Source: Raja brachyura
Lineage: Eukaryota
NCBI GenBank assembly: GCA_963514005.1
Contig: OY740781.1
Location: forward strand, 141,360,001 to 141,420,378
Length of the DNA stretch: 60,378 nucleotides
Direction: 5' to 3'
Within the stretch, counting starts at the first letter, position 1; each line of letters starts with the position of its first letter. The translations under genes were made by a program, and so were the position numbers. The notes under the pieces were generated by a model. The model made no database searches. It was given only the letters and a program-made list of their open reading frames with translations, and was not told where the DNA came from. Positions 49,765-51,116 of this stretch are shown piece after piece.

Positions 49765-51116
49765 CCAAGAAGTACAGAAGACTTCATTGAGCATAATTCC
49801 GACTGGTGGAGCACATTATCGCACGCGTCATGCAAACTGTCTTAAATGACCAGCAAAACTGGCAACCTAAAAAGCTCCCGGTTGCCCTTTCTTCAAGTAC
49901 ATGTGAGACACACAACACATCCAAGATCAGAGTTTTAGAGTCTGGGTCCCTGAATCACGGGAGGACTGGTCCCCCAACGCAACCCGTTCCACAATGCAAT
50001 ATTCCACAACTCACCCGTCCCCCCAACGCAATATTGCATCACTGACGCATAGCCCCAACTGCGCAGGCACGGCACATTTCCCCTCATCCCCCAGCACTCC
50101 CACCCCCTCCTCTTCACCCTCCCTCTTCTTTCCCCTCTCCTCACCCAATCCCTCCCTCACCTCACCCTCCCTCTCCTTTCCCCTACCCTCAGTCACTCCC
50201 TCCCTCCATCTATAAAAAGCAGCATCTGCAGTTCCTTCCTCCACAGGTCATTCATTGCTGGCTGTGGACCCAGACTATAAAACTCTGATCTTGGATGTGT
50301 GTCTGTGTGTGTGTCTGCTTCTGTGTCTGTGTGTGTGTGTCTGTGTCTGTGTCTGTGTCTGTGTCTCTGTGTGTCAAACTCCGCGCAAACTGCTTGGCCA
50401 CTCTGCAACCCGACTCTCCCTCTGCCCACTCCGGCTCGGCCCGTCCCCGTCCTGTCCGACCGCCCATTGCTGCCACTTGGCCCGTCCCTGCCGCCGCTTG
50501 GCCTGTCCCCGACCTGTCCACCTGCCTACCTGCTCGCTTCTGCCGCCGGGGGAGATGGGGTCGGTGTTCATCATGGTGGGCACCACGTGTTTCAATGAGC
50601 AGGTGGAGAAGATCTCCTCCGAAAAGGCCGTGAGGCTGAGTTACCGCGGCGGCGGAGGAGATGGACCTGGGTGGACGGTAGACAGGACCGCCATTGCCAC
50701 AGAGGGCGGGCAGGGGAGAGGGGTAAATGATGAGGGCGAGAGAGATGGGACCAGGGCCTCCACTGTGAATCCACTGAACCCATCCGCGGCCGCCGCCGGT
50801 GGTGGGGGAGACAATAGATAAGTTACGGTGAGGAGGGGAGAGAGGAGTTCGTCAGTGAGGTGGGACATGCTGGCACCGGTGGAGCAGGAAGGGGCGTCGC
50901 CATCCCGGCTGTGGCATTGACTGGCAGAAGAGACCAATCTGCGTGGCGCTGACTGAAGGAATCTGCGCACGCGCGGTTTTTAAGAATTTTAAACCACAAT
51001 AACTTTTGCAAAATACCACCGGATAGAACAAAACTTGTTGCACTCGCAGCACAGGAGAACGGTGAGTAACCTGTTGAAAAATTCTAGCTATCGCAAACCG
51101 GAAGAGCGCAAGATTT
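49765..51116 (-). mobile_element. Composite Helitron-like element (copy 3) with captured GC-rich fragments
   Basis: Minus strand 51080-50985 resembles the copy-1 5' region (ttactcac.gt.ctcct...aaaagttat). Minus strand 49990-49944 matches the copy-1 3' region (gcgttgggggaccag.cctcccgtg...gggaccca). It shares the purine tract and gcagttggggctatg with copy 2. Confidence 0.68.
50555..50635 (+). pseudogene. ALG13: ALG13-like first coding exon fragment (UDP-GlcNAc transferase N-terminus)
   Basis: 81 nt encode MGSVFIMVGTTCFNEQVEKISSEKAVR, versus recalled MKCVFVTVGTTSFDDLIACVSAPDSLQ. Followed by CTGAGT, a GTGAGT donor with G>C. No further ALG13 exons seen. Confidence 0.7.

What the first reader, a model, noticed from the sequence alone, without database searches (positions are those of the whole stretch)
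50555..50641. Captured ALG13-like exon 1 with dead splice donor inside a Helitron-like element
Seen: ATG-initiated 27 codons MGSVFIMVGTTCFNEQVEKISSEKAVR followed by CTGAGT and GC-rich intron-like sequence. Known: ALG13 proteins begin with a VFVTVGTTxFDxL motif, and I recall the first coding exon as 81 nt. The departures V>I, T>M and D>N are all explicable as CpG deamination (TTC GTC>ATC, ACG>ATG, TTC GAC>AAT). Inference: a DNA-level capture (exon plus intron start, so not a retrocopy) of an unrelated gene's 5' end, then methylated and decaying. Helitron gene capture is documented in maize, bats and insects; I know of no description in cartilaginous fish.
Basis: partly seen in the sequence, partly recalled or inferred. 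Interest (0 to 1): 0.75.

Follow-up and report, generated by a model that had tools for sequence, protein, structure and literature searches.

The report
Repeat family carrying ALG13 first exon
A many-copy repeat, likely a rolling-circle (Helitron) transposon in what is likely a ray or skate, carries the first coding exon of the ALG13 gene together with what is likely the start of its intron; most copies keep the splice signal and this one has lost it, a kind of gene-start capture already known from bats and frogs.

Summary
The 27 codons at 50555-50635 are ALG13 exon 1: the best of 116 anchored ALG13 proteins is a ray's (15/27), and real ALG13 genes have a GT donor right after codon 27. This is not the ALG13 locus: no other ALG13 exon is in the window, which holds STX18 exons on the opposite strand.

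The segment is many-copy. In each of three runs, 30-79 contigs carry other letters at five sites, with summed depth about 45-965 times a single contig's. All three amino-acid-changing majority letters shown restore the ALG13 residue, and 90-98% of the depth has an intact GT donor. The dead donor therefore marks this copy, not the family. CpG decay explains only part of its changes.

A Helitron carrier is likely but not proven. Sibling elements in the window end in hairpin + CTAG at an A^T site. This copy has lost that end, and its other end lies in an assembly gap.

Closest known: bat HelibatN3/NUBPL. My literature searches found no such case in cartilaginous fish. Verdict: a new member of a known kind.

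The parts
50555..50635 (+). Decayed copy of the ALG13 first coding exon (27 codons, phase-0 end)
50636..50641 (+). Former splice donor: C at position +1 here, G in most other copies
   Evidence: G in 724 of 809 depth (42 contigs, X1), 3351 of 3426 (30 contigs, X3), 767 of 826 (43 contigs, X4)
50375..50554 (+). GC-rich, CpG-rich stretch with no ATG; inferred ALG13 5' UTR or promoter piece (not aligned to a real ALG13 locus)
   Evidence: GC 0.70, CpG o/e 0.83; many-copy depth
50642..50930 (+). GC-rich stretch, inferred start of ALG13 intron 1; right border approximate
   Evidence: GC 0.64, CpG o/e 0.71 for 50636-50930; other copies' contigs run across the exon end into it (table 8)
50947..51116 (-). 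Helitron-like 5' region of the carrier; its terminus is inferred to lie in the N gap 51117-51278
   Evidence: aligns with the sibling at 4205-4420, which begins with a TC..TATAT end (local score reached by 1 of 500 shuffles); depth rises at 51008-51068
49943..50213 (-). Helitron-like 3' region of a very high-copy family; only one arm of the terminal hairpin remains (49943-49950) and there is no CTAG
   Evidence: matches the siblings at 5360-5440 and 26880-26970 (0 of 500 shuffles each); no hairpin folds here
49908..49949 (-). Inverted copy of 50266-50310 that stands in place of the CTAG end
   Evidence: 45 columns, 91% identical
50266..50374 (+). Piece resembling a Helitron 5' end, pointing towards the exon, followed by a TG-rich microsatellite (50296-50374)
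   Evidence: 21 of 23 identical to the A|TCTATAT end at about 56790 (0 of 500 shuffles)
50214..50248 (+). Short piece of another very common repeat (SINE tail by recall) between the two halves
5406..5435 (+). Sibling element's intact 3' end: 21-nt hairpin, 5 bases, CTAG, then T
   Evidence: z -3.9, 0 of 200 shuffles
39884..39951 (-). STX18 exon. The element lies 5' of it, inferred in intron 1
   Evidence: Pfam Syntaxin-18_N positions 56-74, E 1.6e-5, below the curated cut-off; no exon-1 match in 87 minus-strand pieces of 50 aa or more between 39940 and the window end
6517..6632 (-). Next STX18 exon (named from recalled motifs; AG/GT bounded)
   Evidence: no Pfam hit

Best explanation
This is one decayed copy of a many-copy repeat, likely a non-autonomous Helitron, that carries the first coding exon of ALG13 and likely took it at DNA level together with its 5' flank and the start of intron 1. 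Shown: ALG13 exon identity; the exon ends where real ALG13 exons end; many diverged copies exist; most keep the GT donor; this copy sits in another gene's territory (STX18) on the opposite strand. Inferred mechanism: a Helitron next to the ALG13 CpG island copied about 550 bp of it, by read-through past its terminator or by gap filling during rolling-circle transposition. The 5'-end-like piece at 50266-50300, which points into the exon, may be the remnant of that capturing element. The block ended up between the ends of a larger family and was spread in trans by an autonomous Helitron to an estimated tens to hundreds of copies. This copy then decayed neutrally: donor G>C, at least three amino-acid changes against the family majority, and its CTAG end replaced by a 45-bp inverted duplication. 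It is predicted to be immobile and, being antisense to STX18, unable to splice into it.
For: ALG13 identity with controls. GT after codon 27 in L013, L007 and L014. At five sites, 30-79 contigs per run carry the other letter, with summed depth 45-965 times that of the near-identical single contig, while the flank 49300-49421 has depth at or below single-contig level. 3 of 3 shown amino-acid-changing majority letters give the ALG13 residue; only 9 of 191 possible non-synonymous single changes would, P about 7e-5. Contigs of other copies, about 12-18% diverged, overlap in a chain from 50549 to 51082, from the exon to the Helitron-like end. A joint 50018-51026 (1 contig each in X3 and X4) shows the two outer parts joined without the middle. 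A sibling in the window has hairpin + CTAG|T, and two siblings stand at an A^T site whose empty form is at 10044/10045. Precedent: PMC4224331, PMC4778049, PMC12001565.
Against: This copy has neither CTAG nor hairpin, and its 5' terminus is unseen. The right-end similarity to the sibling is modest (score 28, reached by 1 of 500 shuffles). No laid contig spans the whole element, so linkage rests on a chain of pieces. The exon is antisense to the inferred carrier, whereas captured pieces are reported to be biased to the same orientation (PMC12001565 passage). A SINE-like piece between the halves allows two separate insertions. The host's own ALG13 locus was not available, so the 5' UTR and intron identity are inferred. 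The tool states that summed depth is no copy number.
Confidence: 0.72

Rival explanations
1. The capture and amplification are real, but the mobile unit is not a canonical Helitron bounded by these two ends. It could be a Helentron/DINE-1-like element, or only 50266-51140 (two 5'-end-like sequences facing each other), with 49943-50213 a separate neighbouring insertion.
For: No CTAG or hairpin at this copy. Inverted 45-bp repeat and internal microsatellite. SINE-like piece between the halves. Depth of the left part is tens to hundreds of times that of the ALG13 part.
Against: Both outer parts match siblings with canonical ends. The 50018-51026 joint links them in other copies. The inverted piece is copied from only about 320 bp away, which suggests one molecule (inference).
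Confidence: 0.19
2. The ALG13 piece entered at RNA level, as an unspliced or prematurely ended ALG13 transcript reverse-transcribed into the repeat, which then spread it.
For: Retroposition into Helitrons is documented in bats (PMC4224331 passages). The window is rich in LINE remnants.
Against: The sequence continues past the donor rather than into exon 2. No poly(A) or duplication was seen around the block on reading the sequence. Retroposition usually keeps 3' ends (established knowledge).
Confidence: 0.06
3. It is the real ALG13 exon 1, or a segmental duplicate of the locus, with the rest of the gene outside the window.
For: Open frame from ATG; CpG-island-like setting.
Against: Residue M7 occurs in 0 of 175 ALG13 proteins and Q16 in 0 of 175. 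The donor is lost. No other ALG13 exon lies in the 9.7 kb downstream. There are many diverged copies, and the locus is STX18.
Confidence: 0.02
4. Chance resemblance of a repeat's reading frame to ALG13.
For: Only 27 residues; no hit in the large database searches.
Against: HMM E 8.7e-4 against 1.9 in the control. Family-majority letters move towards ALG13. The donor sits at the exact exon end.
Confidence: 0.01

Closest known systems
HelibatN3 of Myotis bats carrying NUBPL promoter, 5' UTR, exon 1 and partial intron 1 (PMC4224331 passages; PMC4778049 passages and section 13)
   Same: 5' end of a housekeeping gene with its first coding codons and splice donor, inside a non-autonomous rolling-circle element, amplified to many copies (about a thousand in bats).
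   Different: Different gene (27 ALG13 codons against 6 NUBPL codons) and different lineage. In bats, termini, empty sites and exon-trap transcripts were shown; here the termini of ALG13-bearing copies and any transcripts are not.
Heli1Xen1 of Xenopus laevis (PMC12001565 passages)
   Same: Non-mammalian vertebrate Helitron with captured coding fragments, 17 of 19 from gene 5' ends.
   Different: A young family with 64 such insertions in all (17 copies for armc5). The family here is old (copies about 12-18% apart) and appears to have more copies of one fragment.
Helentron-associated DINE-1-like elements (recalled; PMC4067079 seen as a listing only)
   Same: Internal microsatellite and inverted sequence near the ends.
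   Different: Siblings here end in hairpin + CTAG at A^T, the canonical Helitron pattern.
Processed pseudogene of ALG13
   Same: Decayed copy of coding sequence at an unrelated locus.
   Different: Only exon 1, continuing into a donor site; no exon 2.

Membership tests
ALG13 exon 1 (PF04101 N-terminus) | Significant similarity to the ALG13 N-terminus | tested here: met
   Pfam alone missed it
ALG13 exon 1 (PF04101 N-terminus) | Exon ends after codon 27 at a GT donor | tested here: met
   L013, L007, L014; family majority has G at 50636; this copy has C
Functional ALG13 gene | Downstream exons and invariant residues present | tested here: not met
   no further exon in the window; T7 and L16 lost
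Canonical Helitron (non-autonomous) | 3' CTAG preceded by a short hairpin, in this copy | tested here: not met
   one hairpin arm only, no CTAG
Canonical Helitron (non-autonomous) | 3' CTAG preceded by a short hairpin, in a homologous sibling | tested here: met
   5406-5435, z -3.9; homology to this copy, 0 of 500 shuffles. The sibling at 26.9 kb has CTTG and no significant fold
Canonical Helitron (non-autonomous) | 5' TC terminus | tested here: inconclusive
   this copy's end lies in the gap 51117-51278; TC..TATAT ends at about 4219 (preceded by T, not A) and about 56790 (preceded by A)
Canonical Helitron (non-autonomous) | Insertion between A and T without target duplication | tested here: inconclusive
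   fits the siblings at 5.4 and 26.9 kb against the empty site 10044/10045, with 4 target bases missing at the 26-kb copy; not testable for this copy
Canonical Helitron (non-autonomous) | An autonomous RepHel partner with matching ends in the genome | not testable with these tools
   no genome held
Helitron gene capture (HelibatN3 type) | Host gene fragment present in many copies | tested here: met
   dispersal in the genome is inferred from the low-depth flank
Helitron gene capture (HelibatN3 type) | Fragment includes non-coding host DNA (UTR, intron) alignable to the donor locus | not testable with these tools
   no batoid ALG13 genomic DNA was obtained; the donor hexamer and GC content fit
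Helitron gene capture (HelibatN3 type) | Copies drive chimeric transcripts through the captured donor | not tested
   no run on record as RNA was listed
Processed pseudogene | Exon 1 joined to exon 2, poly(A), target-site duplication | tested here: not met

The most novel reading that the evidence does not exclude
Rays and skates carry an abundant, undescribed Helitron lineage. One subfamily of it spread hundreds of ALG13 promoter-exon-donor cassettes that mostly keep the GT donor, and some of these now act as portable first exons that splice 27 ALG13 residues onto downstream host exons: the HelibatN3 exon-trap process, arisen independently in cartilaginous fish.
Probability: 0.2. Interest if true: 0.68.

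Novelty: new member of a known kind. Interest (0 to 1): 0.45.

Why it matters
The process is known from bats and Xenopus. The papers read describe the one cartilaginous fish they covered (elephant shark) as poor in DNA transposons (PMC5381603 and PMC6817897 passages). A Helitron-like family with a rough estimate of thousands of copies, and a gene-start-carrying subfamily, would extend gene capture to that lineage. It also offers a directly testable case: most copies keep ATG-side coding sequence and the donor, so spliced reads leaving codon 27 for non-ALG13 exons can be looked for. Practically, the copies can confound ALG13 annotation and primer design. This particular copy is a dead one.

Tried and rejected
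Searches with the peptide alone gave nothing: Pfam, PDB sequences, ESM Atlas, phmmer on 1.84 billion representatives (0 at E 0.001), word-index search with a 40-residue query (1 candidate, none scored).

No genome is held for the window. Pattern scans found 0 matches in viral contigs and genome contigs. Rfam gave 0 matches at gathering score.

No skate ALG13 appeared among the 120 proteins listed (592 passed the cut-off), so the nearest donor protein in hand is Mobula.

No RNA holder was listed. Run X19, a guessed RNA run with share 0.05, had 1 contig with G at 50636 and says nothing on expression. 4 of 21 listed runs were laid; the small-share rows are not used as evidence. Including the LINE tail at 49505-49760 in the laid stretch swamped the loose-end table, so the exon 1-exon 2 junction of the real gene could not be seen.

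Callorhinchus ALG13 aligns 4-5 residues upstream of the ATG, which is too weak to use.

Four look-ups of earlier findings gave nothing on this element.

Rejected: real ALG13 gene, processed pseudogene, chance match, CpG decay as the sole cause, and the dead donor as a family trait.

Full report
Observation. The window has ATG at 50555, 27 codons to 50635 and CTGAGT next. The peptide is too short and decayed for the big libraries (no hit), so I fetched real ALG13 sequences. The ORF of one of them (L011) retrieved 1312 proteins, the 120 listed all carrying PF04101 and many named ALG13, including Mobula, Chiloscyllium, Heterodontus and Callorhinchus.

Identity. Of 116 anchored proteins (of 120), the best match is Mobula with 15/27, then two sharks and three other vertebrate proteins with 14/27; the median is 11. 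Four chondrichthyan proteins hit this segment first in tblastn of the window (E 1.6e-5 to 8.3e-5). Otolemur hit it at E 0.011 and Protopterus not at all. An HMM of the 120 proteins scored it at E 8.7e-4 among 2627 six-frame pieces; the next piece scored E 1.6 and the best in the reversed control E 1.9. Locus L013, fish-like by its 21/27 match to Albula (Pfam E 0.003), has ATG, 27 codons and GTGAGA. L007 and L014 have GT at the same position, while L003 and L010 have no intron there. That the host is a batoid is inferred from the best match and from recalled repeat types; it was not tested further.

Locus. No other ALG13 exon is found in the window. A Syntaxin-18 N-terminal exon lies at 39884-39951 on the minus strand, and a second STX18 exon, named from recalled motifs, at 6517-6632. 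None of 87 minus-strand pieces of 50 aa or more further 5' matched the start of the Pfam model. The element therefore probably lies in STX18 intron 1, antisense to the gene.

Copy number and family state. Of 21 listed runs, 20 hold the stretch or part of it, 2 of them half or more; they come from 7 coded organisms and 10 studies. I laid 4 runs at 80% likeness. The flank 49300-49421 has depth 1.6-4 (X1), 7.5-19 (X3) and 1-2.4 (X4), and single contigs have about 4-13 (X1, X4) or 50-90 (X3). The two exon bins have 537 and 3206 (X1), 2354 and 6180 (X3), 489 and 3488 (X4). At the five shown exon and donor sites the ratio to the near-identical single contig is 45-965; at 50517 it is only 11-14. The tool warns that this is no copy number, so 'tens to hundreds' is a rough estimate. 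The left part (49971-50214) is far deeper, 44,000-98,000 in X1, roughly thousands of copies; its pyrimidine-rich stretch may inflate that.

Majority letters. The table showed 40 of 263 difference rows. Four fall in the exon: 50588 (codon 12 to Ser), 50594 (codon 14 to Asp), 50601 (codon 16 to Leu) and a silent one at 50623, each carried by 32-79 contigs in each of X1, X3 and X4. All three non-synonymous ones give the residue of chondrichthyan ALG13. Only 9 of 191 possible non-synonymous single changes would do that (P about 7e-5). At 50636, G makes up 90%, 98% and 93% of depth. The family is thus closer to ALG13 than this copy and mostly keeps its donor. One of these contigs per run may be the real gene; I could not single it out. 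Contigs nearly identical to this copy over about 270 bases (50436 to 50706 or 50711) occur in organisms C (0 differences), A and B (3 each, plus gaps) at single-contig depth, while other copies differ by about 12-18%. This suggests an old insertion shared by three organisms (inferred; the flanks were not bridged).

CpG decay. D>N at 50594 fits. V>I and T>M are plausible (V in 165 and T in 175 of 175 proteins), but their rows were not shown. S>C, L>Q and the donor change are transversions. 2 of the 35 shown differences in the element fit CpG loss, with the caveat that the table favours fixed sites. The 556-bp block 50375-50930 still has GC 0.65 and CpG o/e 0.68, against 0.42 for the window, as expected of a copied CpG island.

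Carrier. The left part matches two siblings in the window (0 of 500 shuffles each). The sibling at 5.4 kb ends in a 21-nt hairpin (z -3.9), 5 bases, CTAG and T; the one at 26.9 kb has CTTG and no significant fold. Both stand at the same A^T position of a LINE tail whose empty form is at 10044/10045. Helraiser has TC/CTAG ends and a 19-bp palindrome 11 nt from the end (PMC4778049 passage). The focal copy keeps one hairpin arm; the rest is replaced by an inverted copy of 50266-50310. I infer fold-back synthesis primed on an 8-base match, or a deletion between two tail-to-tail elements. The right part resembles the 5' region of the element at 4.2 kb (modest score, 1 of 500 shuffles) and runs into the gap. 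Other copies' contigs overlap in a chain from 50549 to 51082, and a joint 50018-51026 links the outer parts, but no piece spans the whole. The exon is antisense to these ends, yet it is preceded in sense by a 5'-end-like piece (50266-50300) and a TG microsatellite, which suggests a two-step history.

Mechanism. Most likely (0.72): DNA-level capture of the ALG13 gene start by a Helitron, amplification in trans, and neutral decay of this copy. That an ALG13 exon-1 piece was captured and amplified by some mobile element I put near 0.95; the Helitron assignment is the weaker step.

Comparison with what is known. HelibatN3 amplified the NUBPL promoter, 5' UTR, exon 1 and partial intron 1 to about a thousand copies, and bat Helitrons are biased to gene 5' ends (PMC4224331, 12 of 22 passages seen). 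Its donor traps downstream exons (PMC4778049, passages and section 13). Xenopus Heli1Xen1 captured 19 coding fragments, 17 from 5' ends (PMC12001565, passages). It works like these; membership in the canonical Helitrons is met by siblings but not by this copy's own ends.

Literature on cartilaginous fish. Searches returned: Helitron + gene capture + skate, 0 papers; Helitron + ALG13, 0; Helitron + cartilaginous fish + captured, 3; Helitron + skate + genome + Chondrichthyes, 2; Helitron + elasmobranch, 9. None deals with it, judged by listing; three of the nine were checked by passages (PMC10468316, PMC5381603, PMC6817897). In one search none of the 20 papers listed (of 348) mentions little skate. 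In one search none of the 25 listed (of 256) mentions Helitron. Three supplementary files of the little skate genome paper (PMC10115646) hold neither Helitron nor ALG13; a fourth, a scanned PDF, could not be searched. Subscription papers, bioRxiv supplements, Repbase and Dfam were out of reach and may already list the family.

Verdict. Real, well supported as a captured and amplified ALG13 first exon, probably Helitron-borne; a known process in a lineage where I found no report of it. Interest 0.45.

Noticed in passing
window 5395-5540 and 26195-27070: Two Helitron-like 3' ends stand at the same A^T position of a LINE tail (empty form at 10044/10045), hinting at a preferred target or a composite repeat. 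The 26-kb one starts with a CTGT/CCGT microsatellite.
   Followed up: partly
window 49971-50214: The Helitron-like 3' region has summed depth thousands of times a single contig's in three runs, suggesting a very abundant family in a lineage described as poor in DNA transposons.
   Followed up: partly
window 49908-49949 and 50266-50310: A 45-bp inverted duplication replaces the element's end; possible fold-back synthesis product.
   Followed up: partly
window about 56560-56792 (minus strand): Another Helitron-like 5' end, A then TCTATATTAT, whose 3' end was not looked for.
   Followed up: no
window 49780-49890: Fragment of another high-copy repeat abutting the element (depth 27,000 in X1); hAT-like by recall only.
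   Followed up: no
window 6517-6632 and 39884-39951 (minus strand): Two STX18 exons 33 kb apart, with exon 1 apparently more than 20 kb further on, outside the window.
   Followed up: partly
window 48319-49185: A LINE fragment with a 221-aa open frame (RVT_1 tail, ALKBH8_N-type domain) and a (TTGAA)n tail interrupts another LINE remnant.
   Followed up: no
window 38754-39434; 1038-2492 and 11254-12315: A CpG-rich element with 67-nt inverted ends (93%), and Tc1/mariner-like remnants with a weak DDE_3 hit.
   Followed up: no
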